A DNA stretch of 64,000 nt from NCBI GenBank assembly GCA_965649115.1, contig CBFGJN010000001.1, forward strand, positions 568 to 64,567. The letters are read 5' to 3'. Every line of letters starts with the position of its first letter. Position 1 is the first letter of the stretch. A program made the position numbers and the translations under genes. Positions 277-63,372 of this stretch are shown in pieces. This DNA comes from a candidate division WOR-3 bacterium (GTDB taxonomy: Bacteria; Hydrothermota; Hydrothermia; LBFQ01; DSFT01). The notes beneath the pieces are model-generated. The model was not told where the DNA came from. It made no database searches and saw nothing but the letters and a program-made list of their open reading frames with translations.

Positions 277-286
277 AATTATCAAT

Positions 287-448
287 TACTTGATGCTGTA
301 TTTAGTAATCCTAAAAGTATTTATTTTATTATGTTCTCCAATCAGTCCTGAATTTAAGCCTTCGGCTTACAAATCTTCGCTCCCCGTTAGAACCTCCTAA
401 AATCAATGGTTTCATTGACAATTGCTTAACATTATTTACTAAACAAAG
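287..448 (+). repeat. Degenerate copy of the same repeat family
   Basis: Contains the TATTTATTTTATTAT, AAGCCTTCGGCTT hairpin, AAAATCAATGGTTTCATTGA and AACAAAGCA boxes in family order. Confidence 0.55.
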
Positions 449-451
449 CAA

Positions 452-1036
452 TTACTTGACACCTTTATCTGAATAAAATTTTTTGGCAATTTCGTATTTC
501 CCTTCCTCTTTGTTTTTGTGTTTTATTTCCAAAATTAAATCATCACCAATAAATAAACTAAATTTGTACTGATCCTCAAATTTCTCAACTTTTATTTTTG
601 AGTTTGGATATTCTCTTTTTAATCTGCTAATGAAATCATCAAAATTACTTAACAAAAATTTTCTTTTTGACCAAAGAACATTTTCTAAAAATTCAAATAG
701 CTTATTAAAGCCATAATCAAAATAAATTCCACAACAATATGCTTCAAAAATTGTTGCCAATAAATAATCTGAAAATTTTATACTTCCAACATAAATTAAT
801 TCTTTATCCAAATTTAATTCTTTTGAAATATAACTTAAACTTCTTTTACTTGCTAATATCCCTCTTTCAATAGATGCATATTTTAAGTCATCAAAGTAAA
901 TTTGAAATAACTTTTGTCTTAAATACAAATCAATTAAGCTATCGCCAATAAATGCATATATTCTTTGAAACTTTCCACCTGCTGAACTATGTCTAAATAC
1001 TCTATCTCTTGTTTTAGAATTTAATTCAACCTTCAA
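452..1036 (-). CDS. rnc: Ribonuclease III-like protein (divergent)
   Basis: Has an AFIGDS motif resembling the RNase III signature LEFLGDS and an [12 protein letters not shown] block resembling ALEALIGAIYLD. The C-terminus is dsRBD-like, and the gene sits immediately downstream of fabF and acpP in the conserved acpP-fabF-rnc order. Some catalytic acidic residues appear substituted. Confidence 0.55.
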
Positions 1037-2554: not shown

Positions 2555-2572
2555 ATAGTTGATTAAAGATTT

Positions 2573-2777
2573 GCTGTGTCCAATAATTCTAAAACTATTT
2601 ATTTTATTATATTTTTCCCACCCACCCTATATTTAAGCCTTCGGCTTATAAATACCCATATTTCGGCTATGGGGGGCGAAGCCCCCCTAATAATCCCCCC
2701 GATAAATCAATAGTTTCATTAAAACTTTAATAAGTTATTGATATTCAAGGACTTAACAATAATTATTGGACAAAGCA
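2573..2777 (+). repeat. Full-length MITE-like repeat unit (205 bp) with terminal inverted repeats
   Basis: Starts GCTGTGTCCAATAATTCT and ends AATTATTGGACAAAGCA. It is flanked by perfect 10-bp direct repeats TTAAAGATTT at 2563-2572 and 2778-2787. The interior carries the CCCACCCACCC, AAGCCTTCGGCTT, GGGGGGCGAAGCCCCCC and TTGATATTCAAGG boxes. Confidence 0.8.
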
Positions 2778-2787
2778 TTAAAGATTT

Positions 2788-2935
2788 GCCTTGTCTAGTA
2801 ATTCTGAAAATATATTCATTTCTTTATTTTACCCACCCACCTATCCTGAAAATAAAGGTGGAGCCTTATAAATACCCAATTTTTTGCCTTTGGAGGGCAG
2901 AGTTCCCCTTAAATTCCCCCTGAAAATTTATGCTT
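2788..2935 (+). repeat. Degenerate tandem second copy of the repeat
   Basis: GCCTTGTCTAGTAATTCTGAAAA start, then CCCACCCACC and GGAGCCTTATAAATACCC boxes. The 3' end is missing. Confidence 0.6.
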
Positions 2936-2964
2936 TATAATTTTCAACTAACGGGAGGTGGAAC

Positions 2965-11433: not shown

Positions 11434-11612
11434 TGCTTTGTCCAGTAAATAATGTTAAGTAATTGACAATCAATAACTTATAAAAATCTACTTGAAACTA
11501 TTGATTTTATTGGGAGGAATTAAGGGGGCGAAGTTATAAGCGGAAGGCTTAATTTCAGTGGGGCTAGGAAAACAAAGAAAAATAAATACTTTCAGAATTT
11601 TCAGACACACCA
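11434..11612 (-). repeat. Repeat copy in reverse orientation
   Basis: TGCTTTGTCCAGTAAATAATG … TCAATAACTTATAAAA … GGGGGCGAAG … AAGCGGAAGGCTT … TTTCAGAATTTTCAGACACACCA. Confidence 0.7.
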
Positions 11613-11680
11613 GATAGTAAGGAAAGTTATGCTTTAAAATTTTCAAAGTTAGCTATGCTAACTAAAAAGGAGGTAAGGGT

Positions 11681-12694: not shown

Positions 12695-12880
12695 TGCCTT
12701 CCTATACCGAAAAAGTGTTAAGTTGTTGATTATTAATAATTTATAAATTTTTAAGAAAATCACTTATTTATTGGGGGGTTTTAAGGAGGACGAAGATTTT
12801 AAGCCATAGGCTAAGTTTTTATTTTTGTAAATCAAAACATTTGCCTCCATAAGTTATTGATAATCAGAAATTTATAAAAC
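12695..12880. repeat. Degenerate repeat-family remnant(s)
   Basis: GGGGGGTTTTAAGGAGGACGAAG, AAGCCATAGGCTAAG and TTATTGATAATCAG boxes. Confidence 0.45.
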
Positions 12881-18469: not shown

Positions 18470-18483
18470 AGTAAAATTTTAAA

Positions 18484-18737
18484 GCTGTGTCTAATAATTC
18501 TGGAATTATTTATTTTCCTCCTAAAACAAGGATTTCTAATAAATTTTCATAAGTTAAAGCATAATTCTAAAAATATAATCATTCCTATTTAAGGCTTCAC
18601 AATTCATCAACCCTCCATTGTCTTGAAATGCTTGAAGTAATAGGGAATTAAAAAGGCTTAGAACCGAAGGCTCAATTCGTAGGGTGAGTGGTAAAAGTAT
18701 AGAAATAATTATACTCTCAGAATTTTTGGACACAGCA
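18484..18737. repeat. Repeat element with perfect inverted ends (head-to-head arrangement of family termini)
   Basis: Starts GCTGTGTCTAATAATTCTGG and ends CAGAATTTTTGGACACAGCA. The interior has AACCGAAGGCTC and AGGGTGAGTGG boxes in reverse orientation. Confidence 0.7.
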
Positions 18738-18757
18738 AAAACCATTTATTTTTTAGC

Positions 18758-18774
18758 TTTAAAATTTTCAAAGT
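18758..18774 (+). promoter_or_regulatory. Promoter-like palindrome CTTTAAAATTTTCAAAG upstream of serS
   Basis: Ends 4 nt before the serS ATG. No Shine-Dalgarno sequence. Confidence 0.5.
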
Positions 18775-18778
18775 TTTT

Positions 18779-20047
18779 ATGCTTGATTTAAGTTATCTAA
18801 AGGGAGAAAAACTTGAAAAATTAAAAAGTAGTTTAATAAATAGAGGATATAGCTTAGATATTCTTGAAAAGATTTTGGATATTGATGGAAAAAGAAGGAA
18901 ATTAATTAAGGAAGTGGATGATTTAAGAGCAAAGAAAAATGAGAAATCAAAAATTATTTCTCAAATGATATCAAAAGGAGAAAATGTAGATGATTTATTA
19001 AAGGAGGCAAGGGAAATTGATAATATGCTTGAACATTTGGAAGAAGAAAGAAGAAAAATTGAAAATGAATTTAATTATTATTGGAGTTTAATTCCAAACA
19101 TTCCCCATCAAAGTGTTCCTATTGGTAAAGATAGTTCTGATAATGTAGTAGTTAGAGAATGGGGTAGAATTCCAGAATTTGAATTTGAACCCAAACCACA
19201 CTGGGAAATATGCGAAAAACTTGATATTATAGATTTTAATATGGGAGGGGAATTAGCAGGTTCAAGATTTGTTGTTTATAAAGGAATTGGAGCAGAGCTT
19301 GAATGGGCTTTGATAAACTATTTTAGAGAATTTGCTAAAAAGCATGGATATAAAGAAATTATTCCACCATTTTTGGTAAATGAAAGAGTTATGTTCAATA
19401 GTGGCCAATTACCAAAATTTAAGGATGAAATGTACTATATTGAAAAAGATGAGTTATATCTCGTTCCTACAGCAGAAGTTCCACTAACAAGTTTATTTAT
19501 GAATAAAACATTAGATGAAGAAGAATTACCTATATATTACTTTGCCTATACACCTTGTTTTAGGAGAGAAGCTGGCGCTTATGGTAAAGATGTTAGAGGA
19601 ATTAAAAGAATGCATCAATTTAATAAAGTTGAATTATATAAATTTACACTTCCTGAAAATTCATATGAGGAACATGAAAAAATGGTAAGAGATGTTGAGG
19701 AAATTTTACAAAGTTTGAATATTCCTTATAGAGTTGTTTTGCTATGTACTGGTGATATGGGCTTTGCATCAGCTAAAACTTATGATATTGAGGTTTATTG
19801 TGCAGGGCAAGGTGGTTATTTGGAAGCAAGTTCAATTAGTAATGTAGAAGATTTTCAAAGTAGAAGAGCTAATATAAAAGTTAAAAGAAAAAGTGGAAAG
19901 AAGGATTTTGTTCATACACTTAATGGTTCAGGTCTTGCAACACCAAGAGTCCTAATAAGTATTATTGAAAATAATCAAACAAAGGAAGGTTATGTTGTTA
20001 TTCCTGAACCTTTAAGAAAATATATTGGAGTTGATATTATTAAATGA
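18779..20047 (+). CDS. serS: Seryl-tRNA synthetase
   Basis: N-terminal coiled-coil arm and class II aaRS motifs (…FRREAG…, GSGLATPR). Confidence 0.95.
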   Translation: MLDLSYLKGEKLEKLKSSLINRGYSLDILEKILDIDGKRRKLIKEVDDLRAKKNEKSKIISQMISKGENVDDLLKEAREIDNMLEHLEEERRKIENEFNYYWSLIPNIPHQSVPIGKDSSDNVVVREWGRIPEFEFEPKPHWEICEKLDIIDFNMGGELAGSRFVVYKGIGAELEWALINYFREFAKKHGYKEIIPPFLVNERVMFNSGQLPKFKDEMYYIEKDELYLVPTAEVPLTSLFMNKTLDEEELPIYYFAYTPCFRREAGAYGKDVRGIKRMHQFNKVELYKFTLPENSYEEHEKMVRDVEEILQSLNIPYRVVLLCTGDMGFASAKTYDIEVYCAGQGGYLEASSISNVEDFQSRRANIKVKRKSGKKDFVHTLNGSGLATPRVLISIIENNQTKEGYVVIPEPLRKYIGVDIIK

Positions 20048-23670: not shown

Positions 23671-23674
23671 AAGG

Positions 23675-23689
23675 TTTAAAATTTTAAAG
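23675..23689. promoter_or_regulatory. Perfect palindrome TTTAAAATTTTAAAG shared by divergent tRNA-Gly and truB
   Basis: Lies 5 nt upstream of the tRNA 5' end on the minus strand and 9 nt upstream of the truB ATG on the plus strand. Confidence 0.55.
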
Positions 23690-23698
23690 CATAAGTTT

Positions 23699-24645: not shown

Positions 24646-24828
24646 TGCTTTGTCCAATAAATAATGTTAAATGCCTAATAATCAATAACTTATAAAATTT
24701 TTAAGGAAATTATTGAATTTTAGCCCCCCATAACCGAAAAATGGGTATTTTTAAGCCGAAGGCTTAATTTCAGGGTGGGTGGGAAAAATATAGAAAAATA
24801 AATAATTTCAGAATTATTAGACACAGCA
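24646..24828 (-). repeat. Repeat copy in reverse orientation
   Basis: TGCTTTGTCCAATAAATAATG … AATCAATAACTTATAAAA … GCCCCCCATAACCGAAAAATGGG … AAGCCGAAGGCTT … AGGGTGGGTGGG … CAGAATTATTAGACACAGCA. Confidence 0.8.
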
Positions 24829-26900: not shown

Positions 26901-27857
26901 TTAGTCACTTATTTCCATTACAATTTTTCCTCTAACATGACCGCTTTCTAATATCTTATGAGCTTTTTTAACACTTTCAACACTAAATGGTAAAACCTCT
27001 GAAATTATTGGTTTCACTAATCCCCTTTCAATAACTTCCTTCATTTCTTCAAGTCTTTTACTTTCTCTTGTTAAGAAAATCCCATATAGAGTTATATTAT
27101 TTCTATAAAGCAATGATAAATCTCCTTTCGGTGGTAATATACAAGCAACCCTTCCAAAAGGTTTAATTACAGGTAAAACTCTTGAAACGATGTTATCACC
27201 TTGAATATCAAAAGCACAGTCAACCCCTTTATTTTCAGTTATTTCCATAACAATTTTATTTACATCGTCATTATAGTCAATAACATAATCTGCTCCAATT
27301 TGCTTTAAGAAGTCAAAATTTCTTGGACTACTTGTTGCAATTACTCTTGCAGAAATCATTTTAGCAAACTGAACAGCAAAAGAACCAACACCACCTGCTC
27401 CCGAATGAATAAGAATTGTCTCGTAAGGCCTTATATTTAACCTTCTAACAATTGCTTCCCAGGCTGTTCCTCCTGCTAAGGGAACAGCTGATGCTTCAAT
27501 GAATGACAAATTTTTTGGTTTTTTTGAAACAATGTTTGCTTTAACAACATTATATTCTGCATAAGCACCATTTGGATTATTATATATTTCAGGAGTGTAA
27601 TAAACTTCATCACCGACTTTAAAATCTTTAACACCTTCCCCAACTTCTTCAACAATTCCACTTACATCATAACCTATTATAATAGGTGGCTTTAATCCAG
27701 CCCAAGTTCCATTTATTCTTATTTTATAATCAACAGGGTTAAAAGCAACTGCCTTAACCTTCACAAGTATTTCGCCAGCATTAGGTTTTGGTTTTTTCAT
27801 TTCAGTCATTTCAAAGTTTTCAACATCTCCAAACTCTTTAAGAACGATCGCACGCAT
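26901..27857 (-). CDS. Zinc-type alcohol dehydrogenase-like / NADPH:quinone oxidoreductase (MDR family)
   Basis: GroES-like N-terminal domain and Rossmann GxGxxG (GAGGVGSFAVQ) block. Confidence 0.85.
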   Translation of the reverse strand: MRAIVLKEFGDVENFEMTEMKKPKPNAGEILVKVKAVAFNPVDYKIRINGTWAGLKPPIIIGYDVSGIVEEVGEGVKDFKVGDEVYYTPEIYNNPNGAYAEYNVVKANIVSKKPKNLSFIEASAVPLAGGTAWEAIVRRLNIRPYETILIHSGAGGVGSFAVQFAKMISARVIATSSPRNFDFLKQIGADYVIDYNDDVNKIVMEITENKGVDCAFDIQGDNIVSRVLPVIKPFGRVACILPPKGDLSLLYRNNITLYGIFLTRESKRLEEMKEVIERGLVKPIISEVLPFSVESVKKAHKILESGHVRGKIVMEISD

Positions 27858-27896
27858 AGTTTGAAAATTTTAAAGCTTTTTAGAGACTTTCAATTG

Positions 27897-28032
27897 CTGT
27901 GTCTAGCCTAAAAATAAGGCTTCGCCTTATAAATGCCCATTTTTCGGCTATGGGAGGGCTTAAATTCAATAATTTCATTAAAAATTTTACAAGTTCTTGA
28001 TCGTCAAGGACTTAACACTATTTATTGGACAA
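27897..28032 (+). repeat. Compact repeat copy. Its 3' end overlaps the C-terminal codons of ORF 27987-28556.
   Basis: GCTGTGTCTAGCC … AAGGCTTCGCCTT (hairpin with swapped stem) … TTTTCGGCTATGGGAGGG … TCAAGGACTTAACACTATTTATTGGACAA. Confidence 0.7.
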
Positions 28033-31559: not shown

Positions 31560-31562
31560 AAG

Positions 31563-31648
31563 TTTTAAAATTTTAAAGGATAGAGCTTAATTTATGAAAA
31601 ATTTAATGGGGGCGCCAGGAAGCTTAAATATCCTTTAAAATTTTAATT
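31563..31648. promoter_or_regulatory. Divergent pair of promoter-like palindromes (tRNA-Leu on the minus strand, kelch gene on the plus strand)
   Basis: TTTTAAAATTTTAAAGG at 31563-31579 lies 4 nt from the tRNA 5' end. CCTTTAAAATTTTAATT at 31632-31648 abuts the ATG at 31649. Confidence 0.55.
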
Positions 31649-38190: not shown

Positions 38191-38350
38191 ACCACTTACC
38201 TGCTTTGTTTAATAATTCTAAAATTATTTATTTTTCTTTATTTCCCCACCCACCCTAAAAATAAGCCTTCGGCTTATAAAAGCCCCTATTTTTTTTCAGG
38301 AGGCTTTGCCCCCTTATTAACCCCCATAAAATCAATAGGGACTTAAAATA
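38191..38350 (+). repeat. Repeat copy (3'-truncated)
   Basis: TGCTTTGTTTAATAATTCTAAAATTATTTATTTTT … CCCACCCACCCTAAAAATAAGCCTTCGGCTTATAAAAGCCCC … CCCCCATAAAATCAATAGGGACTTAAAA. Confidence 0.75.
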
Positions 38351-38351
38351 T

Positions 38352-38996
38352 CTATAAAAAATTATCTATGCTAACTTCAAAAACTTCTTTAAAAATTCTT
38401 TCATTAAGAAGTGTTGAATAAATTTTTCCATTTTTCATAATAATAAAATCTTTAAAATACTTAATTGCTAAATGAATATCGTGAATTGTTAAAATAACTG
38501 TCTTGTTAATTTGATTTAGGTAATTTAAGAGTTTTATTTGGAAGTAAGGATCCAAGTGAGATAATGGTTCGTCAAGTATTAAAATTTTTGAATCTGAATT
38601 AATAACTCTACTTAACCTAACTCTTTGAATTTCTCCACTTGAAAGTTCATCTAATTTTTTGTTTAATAGGTTTGATATTTCAAAAATATCATATTTTAGT
38701 TTTATATTTGCTAAATTTAAATATGTTTTAACTTTTATGCTTGGGCAATATTCAACTTGTAATAAAAAAGAACAAAGTCTTGTAAGTTCTTTTTGACTAA
38801 TTTCACTTAATTCTTTATTAAATAATTTTATAGAGCCTTCATAATTTAACATTTTTAGTAGGGTTTTTATAAGTGTGCTTTTACCACTTCCATTCGGACC
38901 TAAAATGGCAATTTTCTGTCCTTCGTAAATTTCTAAATTACCTATATGAATTTTAAAATTTTTATAACCTGAAATAACATTTTTTAATTTTAACAA
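38352..38996 (-). CDS. ABC transporter ATP-binding protein (short, single-domain)
   Basis: Walker A GPNGSGKST, signature LSSGE, Walker B ILILDEP. Confidence 0.8.
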   Translation of the reverse strand: MLKLKNVISGYKNFKIHIGNLEIYEGQKIAILGPNGSGKSTLIKTLLKMLNYEGSIKLFNKELSEISQKELTRLCSFLLQVEYCPSIKVKTYLNLANIKLKYDIFEISNLLNKKLDELSSGEIQRVRLSRVINSDSKILILDEPLSHLDPYFQIKLLNYLNQINKTVILTIHDIHLAIKYFKDFIIMKNGKIYSTLLNERIFKEVFEVSIDNFL

Positions 38997-47984: not shown

Positions 47985-48527
47985 AATAAGTTATTTTCGA
48001 GTGGGTGGGGAAAATAAAGTTGCTTTGTTCAATAAAAATTTTAAGAAAACTATTGATTTTAGCGGGTTTTTAAGGGGGGCAAAGCCCCCCATAACCGAAA
48101 TAGACACAGCAAATATATTTTGCTTTGTCCAGTAATTATTGTCAATCACTTGATAATCAATAACTTATAAAATTTTTAGGGAAATTATAGATTTCATTAG
48201 GGGGATTTTAGGGGGGCGAAGTCCCCCACAGCCTAAAAATGGGCATTTTAAAGCCGAAAGCTTTTATTTAGGGTGAGCGAGGAAAAATAGTAAAATAAAT
48301 AATTTTAGAATTATTAGACACAGCAAATATATTTAACTTTGTCTAGTAATTGGTGTTAAGTTATTGATAATCAATAATTTGTGAAAACTTAATAAAATTA
48401 TTGTCTTTATGGGGGTTTTAAGGGGGGCGAAGCCCCCCATAGCCGAAATATGGGTATTTTAAAGCCGAAGGCTTAATTTTAGGGTGGGTGGGAAAAATAA
48501 ATGGTTTTAGAATTACTAGACACAGCA
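47985..48527 (-). repeat. Array of three reverse-orientation repeat units plus a leading fragment, separated by a constant AATATATTT(T/A) spacer
   Basis: Units approximately 48011-48111, 48122-48325 and 48336-48527. Each starts (T)GCTTTGTYYARTAA and ends AGACACAGCA. The GGGGGGC(A/G)AAG(C/T)CCCCC hairpin is present in all. Confidence 0.8.
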
Positions 48528-51992: not shown

Positions 51993-52054
51993 AGTATGAA
52001 ATTTTAAACGAGGTAAAAGATGAAAAATTATTTTAATGAGACTTTTGATTTCAT

Positions 52055-52180
52055 GGGGGGATTGAAGGGGGTGGTAGCCCCCTACTGCTGAAAAATGTGT
52101 ATTTTAAAGGTTCCACCTTGGTGGATGGGTAAAATAAAGAAATAATCTATATTTTAGAATTACTAGACAAAGAAAATAAT
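52055..52180 (-). repeat. Degenerate repeat copy in reverse orientation
   Basis: GGGGGGATTGAAGGGGGTGGTAGCCCCC … GGTGGATGGG … TTTAGAATTACTAGACAAAG. Confidence 0.55.
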
Positions 52181-57138: not shown

Positions 57139-57250
57139 TAATTCCAATTTCGGTTATGGGGGGCAAAGCCCTCTTAACCCCCGATAAATCAACTATTTTA
57201 AGGACTTAACAATAATTACTGAACAAATAGTTCGGCTGTGGGGCTGAGCA
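57139..57250 (+). repeat. Partial repeat copy (3' portion)
   Basis: TTCGGTTATGGGGGGCAAAGCCC … CCCCCGATAAATCAAC … AAGGACTTAACAATAATTACTGAACAAA. Confidence 0.6.
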
Positions 57251-57262
57251 ATTTAAAGAACT

Positions 57263-58660
57263 TTATATTTTTTCTTCTTCAAGATTAATAAATTTTAAAT
57301 TTTTAGATTTTATTTCTTTTAATATACTTCCAAGTGATTTTAGTGTGTTTTTTCTTTCGTGAAATAGAATTATTGAACCTCCTCTTAATTGGTTAATTAC
57401 TTTAAAATAAATTCCATTTGGACTTAAAAGTTTCCAATCTTCTGAATCATCGTTCCATAAAACTACTTTCATATTTAAGTCTCTTATTACTGAATCCATA
57501 GTGTAGGAATATCTTCCATAAGGTGGTCTAAAAAGGAAGGGTTTAAAACCTGTTAATTTCTCTATTAATTTATTTGTAGTATCAATCTCTTTTCTTATCG
57601 TTTTATAATCTTTAAAAATTAAAACAGGTGAGTGTGAATATGAATGATTTCCAATTATGTGTCCCCTCTTATAAATTTCTAAAACTTCATTTGGATATTT
57701 TTCTATATTCTTTCCAACTAGAAAGAAAACAGCTTTTATTTGGTATTTATCTAAGGTATCAAGTATTTGTTTTGTCCATGGACTTGGTCCATCATCAAAT
57801 GTTATTAAAACTTCGTCTTTGCTATTTAATTGATATATAATATATGGCTTTTTAAGTAATTTTTTGTTTAGTTGAGCATGGACTTCAAAGTACGAAAATG
57901 TAATTAGTATAATAGCAAAAACTACAAATGCTAAAATGTTTCTTCTTTTTATCTCTCTAATTGGTGGTAAGTTCTTCATAATAGGTTTTTTAAAAACATT
58001 TAAAAAGATGTAATTTAGTAAAATATATACAAATAAAGATTTAAAAAGACCCATTTTAAATCTCCTACTTGATGTAATAACAGGATTGTTAATGGTTTTT
58101 ACTTTGCCTATTTTCTTTAAACGATTGCCAAGGTCAATATCTTCGCCTGTTATAAAATTTAAATTAAATCCACCCACTTTCAAAAATGCTGATTTTTTAA
58201 CTGCAAAATTACAACCTGCAAAACTATTATTTCCTTTTATCATTCTTTCAATTTTTAAGACAATTGGTGTAAAAATTTTAAAAATTAATGATGTAAAATT
58301 AAAGACCTCTTTAAATTTTACTTCTCCATTTAAAGCAATTATATTTTCATCTTTTTTAAATTCCTCAACATATTTACTTATCCAATTTCTTGGAACAATA
58401 GTGTCAGCATCTGTTGATAAAATAATATCCCCACTTGCATTTAAAAATCCTGTTTGTCTTGCAAAGGCAGTTCCTTTTCTATTTTCAACAATTACTTTAA
58501 CAGGATAATTTTTTAAAATTTCTAATGTTCTATCAGTAGAACCATTATCAACAACAATAATTTCATATTCTTCTTCATAATCTTGATTTAGCAAAGATTC
58601 TATACAATTTTTTATATATTTTTCTTCATTATAAACAGGAATAACGATAGAAACTTTCAT
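57263..58660 (-). CDS. Bifunctional GT2 glycosyltransferase / polysaccharide deacetylase (PgaC-PgaB-like fusion)
   Basis: N-terminal VSIVIPVYNEE…DADT GT2 motifs, central TM helices, and a C-terminal NodB domain (ITFDDGP, GNHSYSH). The start at 58660 (MKVSIVIP) is preferred over the longer ORF that runs into the repeat. Confidence 0.75.
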   Translation of the reverse strand: MKVSIVIPVYNEEKYIKNCIESLLNQDYEEEYEIIVVDNGSTDRTLEILKNYPVKVIVENRKGTAFARQTGFLNASGDIILSTDADTIVPRNWISKYVEEFKKDENIIALNGEVKFKEVFNFTSLIFKIFTPIVLKIERMIKGNNSFAGCNFAVKKSAFLKVGGFNLNFITGEDIDLGNRLKKIGKVKTINNPVITSSRRFKMGLFKSLFVYILLNYIFLNVFKKPIMKNLPPIREIKRRNILAFVVFAIILITFSYFEVHAQLNKKLLKKPYIIYQLNSKDEVLITFDDGPSPWTKQILDTLDKYQIKAVFFLVGKNIEKYPNEVLEIYKRGHIIGNHSYSHSPVLIFKDYKTIRKEIDTTNKLIEKLTGFKPFLFRPPYGRYSYTMDSVIRDLNMKVVLWNDDSEDWKLLSPNGIYFKVINQLRGGSIILFHERKNTLKSLGSILKEIKSKNLKFINLEEEKI

Positions 58661-58699
58661 AATATATAAAATTTTAAAGTTTAATGTTGATTTTTTTGT

Positions 58700-58903
58700 G
58701 CCTTGTCCAATAATTCTGGAAATATAATTATTTCTATATTTTCCCACCCGCCCTAAAAATAAGCCTTCGGCTTTAAAAAACCCCATCTTTTGCTATGGGG
58801 GGCTCTGCCCCCCATAAAGTGCCCCCATTATTTCAAGTATTTCAATTAATACTTAATAAGTAGTTGATTATCAATCACTTAGCAATAATTATTGGACAAA
58901 GCA
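58700..58903 (+). repeat. Full-length repeat unit
   Basis: GCCTTGTCCAATAATTCTGG … CCCACCCGCCC … AAGCCTTCGGCTT … GGGGGGCTCTGCCCCCC … TTGATTATCAATCA … AATTATTGGACAAAGCA. Preceded by ATTTTTTTGT. Confidence 0.8.
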
Positions 58904-58913
58904 AGAGTTAGTT

Positions 58914-59116
58914 GCTGTGTCTAAGAATTCTGAAAGTATTTATTTTTCTTATTTTGCCCACCCGCCCTGAAATAAAGGCTACGCCTTTAAAATGCCCATT
59001 TTTCGGCTGTGGGGGGCTCCGCCCCCCATTAGATCCCCCATAAAATCAATAGTTTTATTGAAATTTTCGTAAGTCATTGATAATCAAGGATTTAACAATA
59101 ATTATTGGACAAAGCA
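58914..59116 (+). repeat. Full-length repeat unit (tandem to the previous one)
   Basis: GCTGTGTCTAAGAATTCTGAAA … CCCACCCGCCC … AAAGGCTACGCCTTT (stem-swapped hairpin) … GGGGGGCTCCGCCCCCC … AATTATTGGACAAAGCA. Followed by ATTTTTTTGT. Confidence 0.8.
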
Positions 59117-59126
59117 ATTTTTTTGT

Positions 59127-59200
59127 GCTGTGTCCAGTAATTCTGAAATATAAAATAATTCTTTTTCCCCCGAAAAATCAAGAGTTTTAATTAACAATAT
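59127..59200 (+). repeat. 5' fragment of a third tandem repeat unit
   Basis: GCTGTGTCCAGTAATTCTGAAATATAAAATAATTC. Confidence 0.6.
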
Positions 59201-59207
59201 TTTTCAT

Positions 59208-59225
59208 GCTTTAAAATTTTCAAAC
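59208..59225 (+). promoter_or_regulatory. Promoter-like palindrome GCTTTAAAATTTTCAAAC immediately upstream of the riboswitch
   Basis: The riboswitch P1 stem begins 1-2 nt after the motif. Confidence 0.55.
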
Positions 59226-59226
59226 A

Positions 59227-59366
59227 TGCAGGCGACAGGGAAGAGGGGTGAAATTCCCCCGCTGTCCCAGCAGCCGTGATGGGCATAAAAATTGCCCCTG
59301 AAAGCCACTGCCGAAAGGTGGGAAGGCTCAGGGGTTTTTAGCCCTAAGCCGGAAGACCTGCCTGCA
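59227..59366 (+). promoter_or_regulatory. Cobalamin (AdoCbl) riboswitch
   Basis: P1 TGCAGGC…GCCTGCA. Conserved AGGGAAGAGGGGTGAAATTCCCC, GCCACTG and GGGAAGGC elements. B12 box AAGCCGGAAGACCTGCC. A downstream hairpin CCCTTCCTG…CAGGAAGGGG can sequester the GGAGG RBS. Confidence 0.85.
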
Positions 59367-60841
59367 TGCTTCAAAACCCTTCCTGCTGGGGTTCAGGAAG
59401 GGGGGAGGTTGTAAGCTTGCTTGATACTATAATTGTTATAGATACTTTTAGATTTTTTTATAAAATTGATAGTTTAAGTAAATTTTCAGATTTTAGGGAA
59501 GTTTTTAGACAGAATAGTTCTATTATTTTTAGAGAACTTTCTAATAGGATTGTAGTTTCAATAAGAGGACTTGAAGATAAGCAAAATGAAGTTTATTTAA
59601 ATGGTGTAAAATTGAATAATCCAATTTGGGGATTTTTTTATGCTAATGCTTTACCTTTAAATTTAATAAGTTCTTCAAACGTTATTCTGAATAATTATAG
59701 AGTAAATTTTGAAATTTCAGGGGAGAAAGAAATTGGATTTTTTATTGGCTCATATAATAAATTTTCAATGTACTATAAAAATGGAACTTTTGGAATTGAA
59801 AGAACATATAATGAAAATAATTACAGATATTGGGATAGTTTTAATAGGGAATATCAAAGAAAAAATAATTTTGAAGATAAAATTGGAGGATTTTTAAATT
59901 TTAAGAATTTAAGCATCATTTTTTATGATGGAATTTTTGGAATGCCATTAAGAGGATATGGTAATGAAGGAAGCGATTTTGAAATTTATAAAGGTTTAAT
60001 TTTAAGTTATAAAAATCATTATTTTAATTATCAATTCTATCGCTATAATTATGAAAAACCCTATGAAAGCTATATATTGGATCTCAATTATTTCCAAGTA
60101 GTTTTTTCAAATATGGAAGAATTTCACAAAAGATTTATTTTCAAAATGCCTTTCAAATATCTTGGTTATTTTTCAATAGTTTTAGATGAAAACAATTTCA
60201 AATTTGACTATTTAATTTCAAAAGCTTTTAGGTATCATAATTTTATTTTTGAATTAGCACTAAAAAGAAGAATTCCAAATTTTTCTGAATTATATTATAA
60301 AAGTAATTATGCAATTGGAAATCAAAGCTTAACCCCTGAAAATTTTTACACATTACAAATGAAATATAAACTTTTTGACATTTTTATAACTTATATTCAA
60401 AATCCTATTTTATGGCTACCTGATGAAAATTATTGGAAAGCTCAAAACTTAAATTATTTATTTTTATATGGTTTTGAAATGGATTATAATTATAGATTTT
60501 TAGAGTTTTCAGTTTCTTATATCAAAAATAAGCTTTCAAATAACATGATATTGCCATATAGACCAAATTTAACAATTTCAGCCTCTATAAATTACAATTT
60601 TAGCTCTTTCTTGAAAGATAAATTAGTTTTTATATATTATTCAAAAAGACCAAGCTATTATTATCCTTCAAGTTTTTATTTAGAACCAATTTTAATAATA
60701 GATTATTATAAATTCTTTGAGTTTAAAAAGTTTTTCTTCTACATTTACTTTAAAAATCTTTTAAATAAATCTTATGAGTTTATAAAAGGCTATCCTATGG
60801 AAAGCTTTTCTTTAAACATAAAAGGAGGTTTAAAGTGGTAG
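59366..60841 (+). CDS. TonB-dependent outer-membrane receptor, BtuB-like (start uncertain; no recognisable signal peptide)
   Basis: The TonB-box-like DTIIVIDTFRF aligns with BtuB DTLVVTANRF. Plug motif VSIRGLEDKQNEVYLNGVKLNN. C-terminal aromatic (…GGLKW). A candidate TTG start at 59417 lies 8 nt after GGAGG. Confidence 0.6.
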   Translation: MLQNPSCWGSGRGEVVSLLDTIIVIDTFRFFYKIDSLSKFSDFREVFRQNSSIIFRELSNRIVVSIRGLEDKQNEVYLNGVKLNNPIWGFFYANALPLNLISSSNVILNNYRVNFEISGEKEIGFFIGSYNKFSMYYKNGTFGIERTYNENNYRYWDSFNREYQRKNNFEDKIGGFLNFKNLSIIFYDGIFGMPLRGYGNEGSDFEIYKGLILSYKNHYFNYQFYRYNYEKPYESYILDLNYFQVVFSNMEEFHKRFIFKMPFKYLGYFSIVLDENNFKFDYLISKAFRYHNFIFELALKRRIPNFSELYYKSNYAIGNQSLTPENFYTLQMKYKLFDIFITYIQNPILWLPDENYWKAQNLNYLFLYGFEMDYNYRFLEFSVSYIKNKLSNNMILPYRPNLTISASINYNFSSFLKDKLVFIYYSKRPSYYYPSSFYLEPILIIDYYKFFEFKKFFFYIYFKNLLNKSYEFIKGYPMESFSLNIKGGLKW

Positions 60842-61920: not shown

Positions 61921-63074
61921 TAAACCTTATAGTTAGCTATGGAGCGTTTGTTATTGGTCAAAGTACAAAACAAGTTTATATTATATATCAAAATCAGATT
62001 GTTGATAGCTTTCCAACTGGAACAAGAGCTGTTCCAAATTATCTAATATCTTTTGGTGATACTTTTCTTATTGTGAATTCTGGTGGATTTTCAGATAATG
62101 GCTCAATTGCTTTTATAAAGAATAAAAACATCATATATGAACTTTTACTTCCAAGCTTTATGAATCCTATGGAAGCTGTTAAGGTAAACAACAAAATATA
62201 TTTTACTGATTTTGGAGATACTTTTAATGATAAAATTTACATTATTCAAAATTACCAAATTATTGATTCAATAAAGGTTTATAAAAGACCAAGTTCAATA
62301 GCTTATTGTTTTGGCTATATCTTTTCTACTTCAACGGGGATAAATAGTGATTATAGTTATGACGATTCGTCATTTGTTCATAAAATAAATCCTTCAAACA
62401 ATAGTGTTTTGAACTTAAAGCTTCGCTCAAATGCTAATGGTGTAAAATGTGATAATAATTATGTTTATGTAATGACAAGTGGAACTTATGATAATAATTT
62501 CAATCCTTTAAACAATTCAACAATTTATAAAATAAATCCACTGACATTTCAAATTATTGATTCTACAAAAAATTTAGAAAATGTTTCAAGTTTTGCTGTT
62601 GGTAATAATTATATTCTTGTTGGTGTTTGGAAATTTGATAGTGTAAAAGTTTATAAAATAAATAAAAATAATTTTAGTTTAATTGATAGTTTCAAATTAA
62701 ATTATGGTGGCCTTGGAGGGATTGATTTTGATGGTCAATTTTTTAAATTTTCACTTGGTGGATTTACAGGTGGTCCAAATGTAATTTATGTTTTAAAAGA
62801 AAGTGATAATACTTCATATTATTTTATTCATCATAATAGTGATGTTGGAAGTGGATTTATTAAAGGATTTATTAGTTTATCTAATTACGAGGTCGTTAAA
62901 AATAAAGTTGGAAACGGAATTATTCATTTCTCAAAAATTCAAGAAATCTATGTTTATGATATTTCAGGAAGAAAAATCCTTCATTTAAGAGATAATAAGT
63001 TAAATTTAAGAAGTTTAAATAATGGCGTTTATATTATTAAAACTGATGAAGGATATTTGAAAATTTTAAAATAA
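61917..63074 (+). CDS. Beta-propeller-like surface protein with a T9SS C-terminal domain (possible BtuG-like B12-binding protein)
   Basis: Overlapping ATGA start. Repeated (Y/F)x(T/V)D-type blade motifs (IYFTDFGD, YVYVMTSG). C-terminus NGVYIIKTDEGYLKILK. Confidence 0.4.
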   Translation: MINLIVSYGAFVIGQSTKQVYIIYQNQIVDSFPTGTRAVPNYLISFGDTFLIVNSGGFSDNGSIAFIKNKNIIYELLLPSFMNPMEAVKVNNKIYFTDFGDTFNDKIYIIQNYQIIDSIKVYKRPSSIAYCFGYIFSTSTGINSDYSYDDSSFVHKINPSNNSVLNLKLRSNANGVKCDNNYVYVMTSGTYDNNFNPLNNSTIYKINPLTFQIIDSTKNLENVSSFAVGNNYILVGVWKFDSVKVYKINKNNFSLIDSFKLNYGGLGGIDFDGQFFKFSLGGFTGGPNVIYVLKESDNTSYYFIHHNSDVGSGFIKGFISLSNYEVVKNKVGNGIIHFSKIQEIYVYDISGRKILHLRDNKLNLRSLNNGVYIIKTDEGYLKILK

Positions 63075-63089
63075 ATTGAGATAAACTTT

Positions 63090-63372
63090 ATTGGGGGTAG
63101 GGTTTTAAGGGAGTCCCCCCATAGCCTAAAAATGGACATTTAAAAGATGGATTTTTTAAAGCTGTGGGCTTAATTTTTAGGATAGGTAGGCAAAATATAG
63201 AAATACAATAACTTATAAATTTTTAAGGAAATTGTTAATTTATTGGGGGAAATTAAGGGGGGCGAAGCCCCCCACTGCCGAAAAATGGGTATTTTTAAGC
63301 CGAAGGCTTAATTATAGGGTGGGTGGGCAAAATATAGAAATGAATATATTTTTAGAATTATTGGACACAGCA
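63090..63372 (-). repeat. Two reverse-orientation repeat units
   Basis: GGGAGTCCCCCCATAGCCTAAAAATGG … and GGGGGGCGAAGCCCCCCACTGCCGAAAAATGGGTATTTTTAAGCCGAAGGCTTAATTATAGGGTGGGTGGGC … TTTTTAGAATTATTGGACACAGCA. Confidence 0.75.

What the first reader, a model, noticed from the sequence alone, without database searches (positions are those of the whole stretch)
58914..59116. Compensatory base changes in the repeat hairpins: selection on structure, not just sequence
The hairpin AAGCC-TTCG-GGCTT (UUCG tetraloop-like) appears with swapped stem pairs as AAGGC-TAC-GCCTT at 58971-58985 and as AAGGC-TTC-GCCTT at 27917-27929. The G6C hairpin keeps its stem while the loop varies (CGAAG, CTCTG, CTCCG, CAAAG). 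Stem-preserving covariation implies the hairpins are functional. They could be RNA structures if transcribed, or DNA cruciform or transposase recognition sites. Either strand could be the functional one.
Basis: seen in the sequence. Interest (0 to 1): 0.7.

Follow-up and report, generated by a model that had tools for sequence, protein, structure and literature searches.

The report
Promoter-homing MITE with GC-rich hairpins
The "repeat hairpins" belong to a ~204-bp miniature transposon that inserts at a fixed distance upstream of gene promoters in an uncultured hot-spring bacterium, and the one swapped stem pair is real but too thin to show selection on an RNA structure.

Summary
Window 58913-59116 is one full copy of a ~204-bp MITE. 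It has 17-bp terminal inverted repeats and 9-bp target-site duplications. The window holds about 26-30 copies or fragments. Related Hydrothermia (WOR-3) hot-spring contigs bring the total to 301 distinct insertion sites.

The swap is real. AAGCC-TTC-GGCTT becomes AAGGC-TTC-GCCTT, with 205 C:G copies, 39 G:C copies and only 7 half-changed C/G copies. The loop has 3 nt, so it is not a UUCG tetraloop. This is the only strongly covarying pair. The other stem pairs are invariant or simply decay. Measures that are robust to relatedness are not significant, and the RNAalifold covariation term is -0.26 kcal/mol.

The loop of the G6/C6 hairpin has been inverted repeatedly (CTTTG/CAAAG, CTTCG/CGAAG). 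That is the signature of DNA-level hairpin template switching, which can also produce a "compensatory" change in one step.

On the strand that reads towards the neighbouring gene, both hairpins are C-GAA-G. The 7-mers are GCGAAGC and CCGAAGG, the known ultra-stable DNA mini-hairpin motifs.

The more striking result is new. The element sits in one orientation, with its 9-bp target exactly 10 nt upstream of the promoter box CTTTAAAATTT. It shares its ends with a 1.5-kb element that encodes a TnpB-related protein.

The parts
58913..59116 (+). MITE copy B, the copy in the finding: full length, 204 bp, consensus columns 1-204.
   Evidence: nhmmer E 1.8e-61. TIR-to-TIR pattern match.
58913..58929 (+). 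Left terminal inverted repeat (TIR-L) of copy B, TGCTGTGTCTAAGAATT.
   Evidence: Read. Inverted complement of 59100-59116. Family consensus TGCCTTGTCCAATAATT.
58957..58967 (+). C-tract CCCACCCGCCC (GGGCGGGTGGG on the minus strand). It is conserved and has no pairing partner on the + strand.
   Evidence: Non-consensus rate 0.144.
58975..58987 (+). Hairpin H1, swapped form AAGGC-TAC-GCCTT. On the minus strand it reads AAGGC-GTA-GCCTT.
   Evidence: Folded as a stem with a triloop. Pair statistics.
59010..59028 (+). Hairpin H3, TGGGGGGC-TCC-GCCCCCCA. On the minus strand the loop is GGA, which is a GNA loop.
   Evidence: Loop statistics.
59100..59116 (+). Right terminal inverted repeat (TIR-R) of copy B, AATTATTGGACAAAGCA.
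58699..58903 (+). MITE copy A, head-to-tail with copy B. H1 is AAGCC-TTC-GGCTT at 58761-58773. H3 is ATGGGGGGC-TCT-GCCCCCCAT at 58795-58815.
   Evidence: nhmmer E 1.3e-51. Sequence read.
58904..58912 (.). 9-nt junction AGAGTTAGT between copies A and B.
58690..58698 (.). ATTTTTTTG, the left copy of the 9-bp target duplication that flanks the A+B dimer.
   Evidence: The identical 9-mer occurs at 59117-59125.
59117..59125 (.). ATTTTTTTG, the right copy of the target duplication.
59126..59155 (+). Remnant of a third, older copy. Only TIR-L and about 13 further nt remain.
   Evidence: nhmmer E 2.7e-4. Family D9.
58669..58679 (-). Promoter box CTTTAAAATTT of the glycosyltransferase/deacetylase gene, whose start codon is at 58660-58658 on the minus strand. 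The box lies exactly 10 nt from the target duplication.
   Evidence: Layout statistics. Gene family.
27903..28032 (+). 5'-deleted MITE copy carrying the swapped H1 AAGGC-TTC-GCCTT at 27916-27928. TIR-L at 27897-27908 faces the start of gene 26901-27857 (minus strand).
2572..2777 (+). Full MITE copy flanked by the perfect 9-bp duplication TTAAAGATT. Its H3 loop is flipped (CGAAG).
2787..2940 (+). Older, truncated copy directly beside 2572-2777. H1 is AAGGT-GGA-GCCTT.
48121..48325 (-). Full copy flanked by AAATATATT.
48337..48527 (-). Full copy flanked by the same AAATATATT, so the same target was hit twice.
24646..24828 (-). Copy lacking the 3' arm of H3. TIR-L lies 35 nt from the start of gene 24864.
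11434..11612 (-). Short-variant copy in which consensus columns ~80-104 are deleted.
63206..63372 (-). Copy truncated at consensus column 167, in tandem with the fragment at 63061-63207.
38201..38357 (+). Copy truncated at consensus column 160.
294..450 (+). Short-variant copy at the end of a four-member head-to-tail array (3-450).
52030..52172 (-). Truncated copy with H1 AAGGT-GGA-ACCTT, in which the closing pair has changed to T:A.

Best explanation
**What it is.** The finding lies inside one member of a family of non-autonomous DNA transposons (MITEs). The element is about 204 bp, with 17-bp terminal inverted repeats and a 9-bp target-site duplication. The host is a low-GC thermophile of the Hydrothermia/WOR-3 lineage.

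**Where it inserts.** The element inserts by a cut-and-paste type mechanism at a position measured from the lineage's core promoter box, (G/C)CTTTAAAATTT. The 9-bp target ends 10 nt upstream of the box, less often 2 nt. TIR-L always faces the promoter. Repeated hits on the same 9-mer build head-to-tail arrays such as the pair at 58699-59116.

**What the hairpins are.** H1 and H3 are internal modules of the element. On the strand that reads towards the promoter both are C-GAA-G triloop hairpins. H3 contains GCGAAGC. H1 contains CCGAAGG or, in the swapped form, GCGAAGC. These are the sequence motifs of the extraordinarily stable single-stranded DNA mini-hairpin.

**How they are maintained (inferred).** I infer that the hairpins form in single-stranded DNA. 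Two processes appear to maintain them.
- Constraint on the lineages of the element that keep proliferating. Stems are as conserved as the TIRs, yet rare-variant rates in inserted copies are the same in stems as elsewhere.
- Hairpin-templated replication errors (template switching) and gene conversion between copies. These invert loops and can change both arms in one event.

The C:G<->G:C swap is therefore a real stem-preserving change. It is most likely one, or a few, DNA-level events that spread as a short haplotype. It is not evidence of an RNA under structural selection.

**Shown versus inferred.**
- Shown: MITE anatomy, target duplications, promoter-linked position and orientation, pair and loop statistics.
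- Inferred: the single-stranded DNA nature of the hairpins, their role in propagation, and the mutational origin of the swap.
For: **Family and anatomy.**
- 26-30 hits in the window.
- 317 hits and 301 distinct sites once metagenome loci are added.
- TIRs are visible in the alignment.
- A perfect 9-bp duplication flanks 35 of 125 full copies, against 9 of 2,500 in shuffled pairings.
- A 1,533-bp element has the same TIRs and its own 9-bp duplication.

**Host.** The seryl-tRNA synthetase is 93% identical to that of a Candidatus Hydrothermia MAG, and that locus (L121) also carries the MITE.

**Targeting.**
- TIR-L faces a gene start in 122 of 133 cases.
- In co-directional intergenic regions the ratio is 99:8.
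- The 28:4 ratio holds among copies with a perfect duplication, which are probably young.
- Of 33 reconstructed empty sites, the target lies 10 nt (17), 9 nt (3) or 2 nt (4) upstream of CTTTAAAATTT, and the 9-mer itself has no consensus.
- Adjacent copies share orientation in 76 of 76 cases, with 9-nt junctions in 23 of 29.
- One MITE is nested in the selfish 1.5-kb element, 19 nt upstream of that element's own box.
- The box directly precedes two tRNA genes, the cobalamin riboswitch and many ATG codons: 17 hits against 1.4 expected.

**Hairpins.**
- MFE folds of both strands contain H1 and H3.
- The closing pair is never swapped to G:C: 0 of 267 for H1 and 0 of 217 for H3.
- Minus-strand loops are GNA in 73% (H1) and 61% (H3) of copies, against 2% on the plus strand.
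- For H3 the counts are GAA:TTC 132:4 but AAA:TTT 50:23, Fisher 1e-8.
- Minus-strand 7-mers are CCGAAGG and GCGAAGC.
- Published rules match: d(GCGAAGC) has Tm 76.5 C, GC-GC or CC-GG stems are allowed, and the RNA version is far less stable (PMC13037366).
- Loop flips are recurrent: 10 parsimony steps for 15 CAAAG copies and 4 for 4 CGAAG copies.
- Template switching is documented to give loop inversions and compensatory changes in single events (PMC8794818).

**Level of constraint.** Non-consensus rates are TIR 0.084, H1 stem 0.11, H3 stem 0.147, against 0.18-0.22 elsewhere. Rare-variant rates are equal, about 0.025-0.030.
Against: - No experiment shows that the hairpins extrude or fold in vivo, or on which strand.
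- The GAA polarity could be simple inheritance from the founder copy.
- The comparison of GAA/TTC with AAA/TTT counts copies, not independent events.
- The 1.5-kb partner does not contain H1 or H3. Only the TIRs are shared. So the hairpins are not obviously needed by the transposition machinery.
- No DDE transposase with these ends was found in the ~1.6 Mb of sequence held.
- The H1 stem is only 5-7 bp, and whether it survives at the growth temperature of a thermophile is unknown.
- H1 on the gene-sense strand is followed by a T-run. A terminator role therefore cannot be excluded.
- The rare-variant comparison is crude.
- The promoter identity of the box is inferred from its position only.
Confidence: 0.55

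Rival explanations
1. The hairpins are RNA secondary structures, either a cis-regulatory element or a small RNA carried by the repeat. Selection on RNA folding keeps them, and the swapped pair is classical compensatory evolution.
For: - Stems are about 3-fold better conserved than average columns.
- 89% of cells are paired, against 87.3% in shuffles.
- The 66-72 pair ranks 3rd of 20,100 column pairs by mutual information.
- Folding z-scores are -3.3 (+ strand) and -2.1 (- strand).
- In co-directional settings, read-through from the upstream gene would transcribe the element.
Against: - Only 1 of 13 pairs covaries. It is a transversion swap, not a G:U-mediated series.
- The relatedness-robust measures are not significant: 58/500 and 98/500 shuffles reach the observed values.
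- The covariation term is -0.26 kcal/mol.
- Rfam gives nothing better than E = 0.16, all far below gathering scores.
- A PWM built from 37 genuine promoter boxes finds no internal promoter in 131 full copies on either strand.
- Loop inversions are tolerated.
- The loop is a triloop, not UUCG.
- Rare-variant rates in stems are the same as elsewhere.
Confidence: 0.12
2. The element has been kept because it acts as a one-way transcription terminator or insulator. Read in the direction of the downstream gene, H1 (UUAAGCC-GAA-GGCUUAA) and H2 are each followed by a U-run. Read-through from the upstream gene would then stop just before the downstream promoter. Orientation bias and stem conservation would reflect host selection.
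For: - The terminator scan flags both hairpins on the minus strand of copy A.
- T-runs follow H1 and H2 only in the gene-sense direction (consensus).
- 99 of 195 copies with both neighbouring genes known lie between co-directional genes, in the 'terminating' orientation.
Against: - The strongest hairpin, H3, has no U-tract.
- H1 has only 3 G:C pairs, in a thermophile.
- Elements are rarest between convergent genes (19 of 195), where terminators are most needed, and common between divergent genes (69).
- The exact 10-nt spacing to the promoter box and the repeated use of the same 9-mer point to a targeting mechanism rather than to selection.
- A copy is nested in a selfish element at the same spacing.
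- There is no excess constraint on inserted copies.
- This role could still coexist with the best explanation.
Confidence: 0.15
3. There is no function at all. H1 and H3 are inherited from the founder of the family. The G:C form is a single historical double mutation that hitch-hiked as a short haplotype and was shuffled among copies by recombination. Conservation would only reflect a recent common origin.
For: - The swap is linked only to adjacent columns 58-62.
- The other top mutual-information pairs are also short-range and not complementary.
- The relatedness-robust statistics are not significant.
- Inserted copies decay uniformly.
Against: - Copies are old, with a median pairwise distance of 0.20. 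Even so, H1 stem columns are nearly as conserved as the TIRs.
- About half of the unascertained copies keep a perfect 5-bp H1, by my hand count of the 13-mers.
- The closing pair never swaps, and the GAA polarity is kept while AAA loops flip freely.
- By my estimate, the chance that two changes in a 13-mer fall on partner positions with complementary bases is about 1 in 36.
Confidence: 0.15
4. The GC-rich core is the scaffold of a guide RNA (omega-RNA-like) used by the TnpB-related protein of the partner element. The flank next to TIR-L, which is the promoter region, would serve as the guide. This would explain promoter homing.
For: - The partner's only ORF is TnpB-related: TIGR01766 E = 8e-16, guided_TnpB E = 6e-15.
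- The ORF runs into the end that abuts a promoter box in both L006 and L165.
- By eye, that end also holds a C-GAT-G hairpin followed by a G-rich tract, in the same order as the MITE minus strand.
Against: - No detectable sequence homology exists between the MITE core and the partner beyond the TIRs.
- No internal promoter is found.
- No omega-RNA family is matched.
- Canonical TnpB elements have neither TIRs nor target duplications (PMC3119063).
- The protein scores below the TnpB family cut-off (55 bits against 100) and, by eye, lacks the zinc finger.
Confidence: 0.05

Closest known systems
Bacterial and archaeal MITEs (for example Correia/NEMIS elements of Neisseria, and the MITEs of Haloquadratum and Sulfolobus)
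   Same: - Short and non-coding, with TIRs.
- A fixed-length target duplication.
- Many diverged copies in intergenic DNA.
- Only the terminal bases are shared with a larger element, and the duplication length is the same (definition as in PMC3119063).
- The whole element folds on itself.
   Different: - The insertion point is measured from a promoter box (10 nt) with a fixed orientation, and the same 9-mer is re-used.
- The internal modules are GC-rich triloop hairpins in a 27% GC genome.
- The larger partner found encodes a TnpB-related protein rather than a recognisable DDE transposase.
REP/BIME/REPIN elements and PATEs (IS200/IS605-derived palindromic elements)
   Same: - Abundant intergenic repeats built around GC-rich hairpins.
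- Hairpins thought to act as single-stranded DNA.
- A link to the IS200/IS605 world through a TnpB-like gene.
   Different: REP elements and PATEs have no terminal inverted repeats and make no target duplication (PMC3119063). This family has both. No Y1 (RAYT/TnpA) gene was seen.
d(GCGAAGC)/d(CCGAAGG) DNA mini-hairpins (GNA triloop with a sheared G.A pair)
   Same: - The exact 7-mers occur on the minus strand of H3 (GCGAAGC) and H1 (CCGAAGG, or GCGAAGC in the swapped form).
- The closing C:G pair is invariant.
- The loop variants GTA and GGA keep the GNA pattern (PMC13037366).
   Different: - Formation was not tested here.
- The known natural examples sit in phage and plasmid priming sites and in N4 promoters, not in transposons.
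- Many copies carry AAA or TTT loops, which break the motif.
Template-switch (quasi-palindrome) mutation at hairpins
   Same: Loop inversions without intermediates, and changes on both arms of a stem that arise in one event (PMC8794818).
   Different: It is a mutational process, not a functional class. It explains how the pattern arises, not why the hairpins exist.
Promoter-directed integration of Ty3/Ty1 and Dictyostelium TRE elements at RNA polymerase III genes (recalled from my own knowledge, not tested)
   Same: Insertion at a defined short distance upstream of a transcription start, independent of the local target sequence.
   Different: Those are eukaryotic retroelements tethered by transcription factors. 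This is a bacterial DNA element, and its tethering factor is unknown.

Membership tests
MITE (non-autonomous TIR transposon) | Short and without coding capacity | tested here: met
   204-bp consensus. The only ORF overlapping a copy is an over-extended call (57263-58786).
MITE (non-autonomous TIR transposon) | Terminal inverted repeats | tested here: met
   TGCCTTGTCCAATAATT and AATTATTGGACAAAGCA are conserved, with a non-consensus rate of 0.084.
MITE (non-autonomous TIR transposon) | Target-site duplication of fixed length | tested here: met
   A perfect 9-bp duplication flanks 35 of 125 copies, against 9 of 2,500 in the control.
MITE (non-autonomous TIR transposon) | Many dispersed copies | tested here: met
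   26-30 hits in 64 kb. 301 distinct sites in all the sequence held.
MITE (non-autonomous TIR transposon) | A larger element with the same TIRs and duplication length that supplies the transposase | tested here: inconclusive
   The 1,533-bp element L006:5706-7238 has the same TIRs and a 9-bp duplication. Its ORF is TnpB-related, not a known transposase. No DDE gene was found.
REP/REPIN or PATE (IS200/IS605-type) | No TIRs and no target duplication; subterminal palindromes only | tested here: not met
   Both TIRs and 9-bp duplications are present.
Structured RNA family (Rfam) | Match to a curated covariance model | tested here: not met
   No hit at gathering score. The best sub-threshold match has E = 0.16.
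Structured RNA (generic) | Statistically supported covariation in several pairs | tested here: not met
   One strongly covarying pair. 7 pairs against 5.0 in shuffles (58/500). Covariation term -0.26 kcal/mol.
Structured RNA (generic) | Transcribed from a defined strand | not testable with these tools
   No expression data. A PWM scan finds no internal promoter.
C(UUCG)G tetraloop hairpin | Four-nucleotide UUCG loop closed by C:G | tested here: not met
   The loop is 3 nt (C-UUC-G). The sequence is AAGCCTTCGGCTT, 13 nt.
DNA mini-hairpin GCGNAGC/CCGNAGG | 7-mer with a GNA loop, a C:G closing pair and a GC or CC second pair | tested here: met
   On the minus strand H3 is GCGAAGC in 55 copies. 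H1 is CCGAAGG in 41 and GCGAAGC in 11. The closing pair is never G:C.
DNA mini-hairpin GCGNAGC/CCGNAGG | Forms an unusually stable fold in single-stranded DNA | not testable with these tools
   This needs melting or NMR. I do not know that the nearest-neighbour DNA parameters used model this motif's extra stability.
Intrinsic terminator | GC-rich stem directly followed by a U-run | tested here: inconclusive
   H1 and H2 of copy A are flagged on the minus strand, but the region total equals the shuffle expectation (2 against 1.9). H3 lacks a U-run.
TnpB/omega-RNA system | Guide-RNA scaffold at the element end, next to a TnpB gene | not tested
   The MITE has no gene, and its core is not homologous to the partner's 3' end.

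The most novel reading that the evidence does not exclude
This is a bacterial transposon family (a MITE plus a 1.5-kb partner that encodes a divergent TnpB-related protein, with TIRs and 9-bp duplications) that homes to promoters. It inserts at a position measured to the base pair from the core promoter box, in one orientation, and re-hits the same site to build arrays. The tether could be RNA polymerase or sigma bound at the box, or an RNA guide of the TnpB-like protein. The strand-specific GCGAAGC-type DNA mini-hairpins would be part of that machinery. A TnpB-lineage protein working with a TIR/TSD element, or acting as its transposase, would itself be new.
Probability: 0.3. Interest if true: 0.85.

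Novelty: new variant of a known kind. Interest (0 to 1): 0.55.

Why it matters
**For the finding as written.** A stem-preserving double change in a repeated DNA palindrome is not by itself evidence of RNA-level selection. Copies share ancestry. The two sites are 6 nt apart. Hairpin-templated replication errors invert loops and repair stems without any selection.

**For biology.** The element is more interesting than its hairpins.
- It marks the promoters of an uncultured thermophilic lineage. The box CTTTAAAATTT lies 5-9 nt ahead of ATG codons, tRNAs and a riboswitch, which implies nearly leaderless mRNAs.
- It shows a spacing-defined, orientation-defined insertion preference that is rare for bacterial DNA transposons.
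- If the preference is mechanistic, it offers a natural system for promoter-directed DNA insertion. It also links a TnpB-related protein to a TIR/TSD element.
- It places the classic d(GCGAAGC) mini-hairpin motif in hundreds of genomic copies in a hot-spring organism, where only such unusually stable folds would survive.

Tried and rejected
1. **TIR-to-TIR pattern scans.** Scans of genome contigs and metagenome contigs found nothing. The source population itself is not in those collections. A looser internal pattern was needed.
2. **Exact-protein look-up** for a window protein: not on record.
3. **Intra-element conversion from H3 to H1.** The idea rested on the swapped H1 9-mer GGCTTCGCC being identical to the centre of H3. 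H1 and H3 loop types in the same copy are not associated, so the idea is not supported.
4. **Internal promoter or small-RNA gene.** By eye, CTTATAAAA(A)TTTTT in the element resembles the promoter box. A PWM from 37 real boxes finds no site in 131 full copies on either strand.
5. **The G:C form as a sub-family clade.** Rejected: 21 parsimony steps for 22 copies.
6. **Homology of the MITE interior to the 1.5-kb element.** Only the TIRs align.
7. **Rfam at permissive E-values:** chance-level hits only.
8. **G:T versus A:C asymmetry as a pointer to the functional strand.** Counts were 110 against 77 over the extended helices, which include flanking pairs that are not really paired. The comparison is confounded by strand-biased C->T mutation, so I did not use it.
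9. **A second hairpin H2 (CCCAT...ATGGG) and pairing of the C-tracts.** No consistent pairing or covariation was found. The high mutual-information values there reflect alternative sub-family haplotypes.
10. **A DDE transposase with these ends.** None is present in the sequence held.
Full report
**1. What is at the coordinates.**
The window has about 27% GC. Positions 58913-59116 hold one complete copy of a repeat of about 204 bp. Both ends carry the same 17 nt in inverted orientation: TGCTGTGTCTAAGAATT at the left and AATTATTGGACAAAGCA at the right.

An iterated nhmmer search finds 26-30 copies or fragments in the 64-kb window, on both strands. All lie between genes.

The 204-nt consensus has this order:
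- TIR-L
- an A/T-rich stretch
- CCCACCCACCC
- hairpin H1, AAGCC-TTC-GGCTT
- CCCAT-N8-ATGGG
- hairpin H3, (AT)GGGGGGC-TTC-GCCCCCC(AT)
- CCCCC
- an A/T-rich palindrome
- TIR-R

The copy in the finding (B) is the second member of a head-to-tail dimer. Copy A is at 58699-58903. The junction AGAGTTAGT is at 58904-58912. A remnant of a third copy follows at 59126-59155.

**2. Check of the observation.**
The three H1 sequences exist at 58761-58773, 58975-58987 and 27916-27928. The hairpin is a 5-bp stem with a 3-nt loop, so it is not a C(UUCG)G tetraloop.

One window + strand 'CAAAG' (about 48079-48095) belongs to a minus-oriented copy and is CTTTG in element orientation. The CAAAG at 57144-57227 is a true CAAAG in element orientation.

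**3. Origin and more copies.**
The source genome is not in the collections. A TIR-to-TIR pattern that matches the window four times found nothing in genome contigs or metagenome contigs.

A pattern over the C-tract and H1 was left degenerate at the two swapped positions. It returned 120 metagenome loci totalling 875 kb at about 27% GC.

The seryl-tRNA synthetase of the window is 93% identical to that of a 'Candidatus Hydrothermia bacterium' MAG. It is 82-86% identical to those of WOR-3 MAGs. The nearest MAG locus (L121) carries the repeat. The two more distant loci do not.

Type IX secretion sorting domains and TonB-receptor and CarboxypepD_reg domains fit the FCB group.

In all the sequence held there are 317 hits, 156 of them full length. 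After merging copies that share flanks, 301 distinct insertion sites remain. Of these, 133 were ascertained by the search pattern and 168 were not.

**4. It is a MITE.**
A perfect 9-bp direct duplication flanks 35 of 125 full-length copies. A further 14 have 7-8 of 9 matches. Shuffled pairings give 9 of 2,500.

In the window:
- TTAAAGATT flanks 2572-2777.
- AAATATATT flanks both 48121-48325 and 48337-48527.
- ATTTTTTTG flanks the A+B dimer, at 58690-58698 and 59117-59125.

Copies are old, with a median pairwise distance of 0.20.

A 1,533-bp element (L006:5706-7238) has the same TIRs and its own 9-bp duplication, AGCCTTAAA. A decayed relative lies in L071. nhmmer aligns only the TIRs between this element and the MITE. 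That is the usual relation between a MITE and its partner (definition in PMC3119063).

The partner's single ORF has 456 aa and is TnpB-related:
- TIGR01766, E = 8e-16, above the cut-off.
- guided_TnpB, E = 6e-15, 55 bits, below the cut-off of 100.
- Cas12f2, E = 3e-10.

It has more than 1,600 homologues annotated as 'IS605 OrfB family transposase', with the Pfam domain SSO2105_N. No DDE transposase was found in the sequence held.

**5. Where it sits. This is the main new result.**
TIR-L faces a gene start in 122 of 133 cases where a gene lies within 150 nt. TIR-R shows no such bias (55 stops, 36 starts). Between co-directional genes the orientation ratio is 99:8. Copies are common between divergent genes (69) and rare between convergent genes (19).

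Read in the direction of the downstream gene, the layout is:
- the element, ending with TIR-L
- a spacer of 17-18 nt (53 cases) or 10-12 nt (21 cases)
- the box (G/C)CTTTAAAATTT
- 5-9 nt
- ATG

The same box directly precedes tRNA-Gly, tRNA-Leu and the cobalamin riboswitch. It gives 17 hits in the window against 1.4 expected. I therefore take it to be the core promoter. Transcripts would be almost leaderless. This is an inference from position only.

I reconstructed the empty sites of 33 copies with perfect duplications. The 9-bp target has no consensus. It ends exactly 10 nt (17 cases), 9 nt (3) or 2 nt (4) before CTTTAAAATTT.

Adjacent copies always share orientation (76 of 76). They are separated by 9 nt in 23 of 29 cases. 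That is what repeated insertion into the same 9-mer would produce.

The bias is equally strong in copies with perfect duplications, which are presumably young: 28:4 overall and 14:1 in co-directional settings.

In L165 a MITE is nested inside the TnpB-like element. It has its own duplication (CTTCTCTTC) and sits 19 nt upstream of that element's own box-like CCTTTAAACTT. Host benefit is an unlikely explanation for that copy.

The partner element also abuts a promoter box with the end that follows its ORF, in both L006 and L165. I conclude that the position is set by the insertion mechanism. How it is measured is unknown.

**6. The covariation claim.**
Over 301 copies the H1 pair at columns 66/72 reads C:G 205, G:C 39, G:G 5, C:C 2, T:G 4 and C:A 4. 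In the unascertained set it reads C:G 90, G:C 24 and G:G 4. It ranks 3rd of 20,100 column pairs by APC-corrected mutual information.

Several observations limit what this shows:
- The other top pairs are also short-range and not complementary. They reflect alternative local haplotypes.
- The G:C state is linked only to columns 58-62.
- On a tree built from the other 187 columns, the G:C state needs 21 steps for 22 copies, the same as permutations. Comparable polymorphisms need only 11-18 steps for 35-68 copies. The state therefore behaves as a short block shuffled among copies, or as a recurrent concerted change.
- The other four H1 pairs are nearly invariant, with about 5 double changes against about 80 one-sided changes (my tally).
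- H3 shows mostly G->A and C->T decay, with 19 A:T cells against 95 one-sided cells (my tally).

On 120 long copies the tool gives these results:

| Measure | Observed | Shuffled | Shuffles reaching observed |
|---|---|---|---|
| Paired cells | 89.4% | 87.3% | 0/500 |
| Covariation score | 0.134 | 0.100 | 0/500 |
| Pairs with changes on both sides | 7 | 5.0 | 58/500 |
| Further pair types | 19 | 17.2 | 98/500 |

The first two measures count cells, and relatedness inflates them. The last two are robust to relatedness and are not significant. RNAalifold assigns a covariation term of -0.26 kcal/mol.

**7. Loops and strand.**
In element orientation the H3 loops are CTTCG (about 45), CTTTG (about 25), CAAAG (about 20) and CGAAG (about 4). 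The pairs CTCCG/CGGAG and CTCTG/CAGAG also occur.

These are reverse-complement pairs without intermediates, so they are loop inversions. They are recurrent: 10 steps for 15 CAAAG copies and 4 steps for 4 CGAAG copies.

Such inversions, and changes on both arms in a single event, are the documented products of template switching at hairpins during DNA replication (PMC8794818).

On the strand that reads towards the promoter:
- Loops are GNA in 73% (H1) and 61% (H3) of copies, against 2% for H3 on the other strand.
- GAA:TTC is 132:4, whereas AAA:TTT is 50:23 (Fisher 1e-8, counting copies rather than events).
- The loop-closing pair is never swapped to G:C (0 of 267 for H1, 0 of 217 for H3).
- The central 7-mers are GCGAAGC (H3) and CCGAAGG or GCGAAGC (H1).

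These are the sequences of the 'mini-hairpin' DNA. The published rules are as follows (PMC13037366):
- d(GCGAAGC) has Tm 76.5 C.
- GC-GC or CC-GG stems are allowed.
- CG-CG and GG-CC stems are not.
- The RNA version is far less stable.

This fits a single-stranded DNA fold on one strand. It is a sequence match, not a demonstration.

**8. At what level is there constraint?**

| Column class | Non-consensus rate | Rare-variant rate (<5%) |
|---|---|---|
| TIRs | 0.084 | 0.025 |
| H1 stem (the 66/72 swap accounts for much of this) | 0.11 | 0.028 |
| H3 stem | 0.147 | 0.030 |
| C-tract CCCACCCACCC | 0.144 | 0.029 |
| A/T columns outside the TIRs | 0.18 | 0.029 |
| Other G/C columns | 0.22 | 0.025 |

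The non-consensus rates differ between classes, but the rare-variant rates do not. I read this as constraint on the lineages that keep proliferating, together with neutral decay after insertion. The measure is crude.

**9. Alternatives.**
- **RNA structure under selection.** Evidence against: sections 6-7, no Rfam match, and no internal promoter by PWM.
- **A one-way terminator.** H1 and H2 are followed by T-runs only in the gene-sense direction, and the scan flags them. However, H3 has no T-run, convergent intergenic regions are depleted of copies, and the spacing is too exact for selection alone. A side role as a terminator remains possible.
- **Pure inheritance without function.** This remains possible. 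The scores for the alternatives are given with the rival explanations.
- **A guide-RNA scaffold for the TnpB-like protein.** This is the most novel reading and is unsupported so far.

**10. Verdict.**
The object is a MITE of a known kind. It has three unusual properties:
- promoter-measured, oriented insertion
- GNA-triloop mini-hairpin motifs on one strand
- a TnpB-related partner that has TIRs and target duplications

Noticed in passing
window 59213-59379 (+): A cobalamin riboswitch (Rfam RF00174, 85.8 bits) lies directly after a promoter box at 59208-59225. It sits upstream of ORF 59366-60841, which has a TonB-dependent receptor Plug domain. The MITE array lies just upstream of it.
   Followed up: partly
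window 11631-11648, 18756-18773, 23673-23690(-), 27859-27876(-), 31562-31579, 59208-59225 and others: The motif GCTTTAAAATTTTCAAAG gives 17 hits at up to 3 mismatches, against 1.4 expected. It lies 5-9 nt before ATG codons and directly before two tRNA genes and the riboswitch. It is probably the core promoter of this lineage, which would imply nearly leaderless mRNAs. In L122 a palindromic TTTAAAATTTTAAA is the whole 23-nt spacer between two divergent genes.
   Followed up: partly
L006:5706-7238 (same locus as L065:2079-3611); decayed copy at L071:604-2022: A 1,533-bp element has the MITE's TIRs and a 9-bp duplication. Its only ORF (456 aa) is a divergent TnpB-related protein. RuvC-like D/E/D motifs are visible by eye, and there is no CxxC zinc finger. 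Canonical TnpB elements have neither TIRs nor duplications. More than 1,600 homologues exist, including one in Thermocrinis ruber bounded by a 12-nt inverted repeat (L164).
   Followed up: partly
L165:1322-1527: A MITE is nested inside the left end of the TnpB-like element, with its own duplication CTTCTCTTC. It sits 19 nt upstream of that element's promoter-like CCTTTAAACTT.
   Followed up: yes
window 58957-58967 and the same columns (45-55) in all copies: A conserved CCCACCCACCC tract reads GGGTGGGTGGG on the gene-sense strand. Further G-runs occur on that strand (ATGGG, GGGGGG, GGGGG). There is no complementary partner, so G-quadruplex potential on one strand is conceivable.
   Followed up: no
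window 11434-11612, 294-450, 12711-12817; many metagenome loci: A short sub-family lacks consensus columns ~80-104, that is H2 and the 5' arm of H3. It still proliferated, so an intact H3 is not required in every lineage.
   Followed up: partly
window 57263-58786 (-): The mechanical ORF call runs 126 nt into MITE copy A. The real start is the ATG at 58660-58658, just after the promoter box. The protein is a GT2 glycosyltransferase fused to a polysaccharide deacetylase.
   Followed up: yes
window 3-450: A head-to-tail array of four decayed copies or fragments lies at the window edge, downstream of the stop of gene 452-1036 (minus strand).
   Followed up: no
window 18440-18790 versus L121:3150-3460: The serS promoter box and start are conserved between the window and the closest MAG. 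Only the window has MITE fragments upstream, and the 18 nt upstream of the box are unrelated in the two genomes. The insertion is therefore polymorphic between close relatives.
   Followed up: partly
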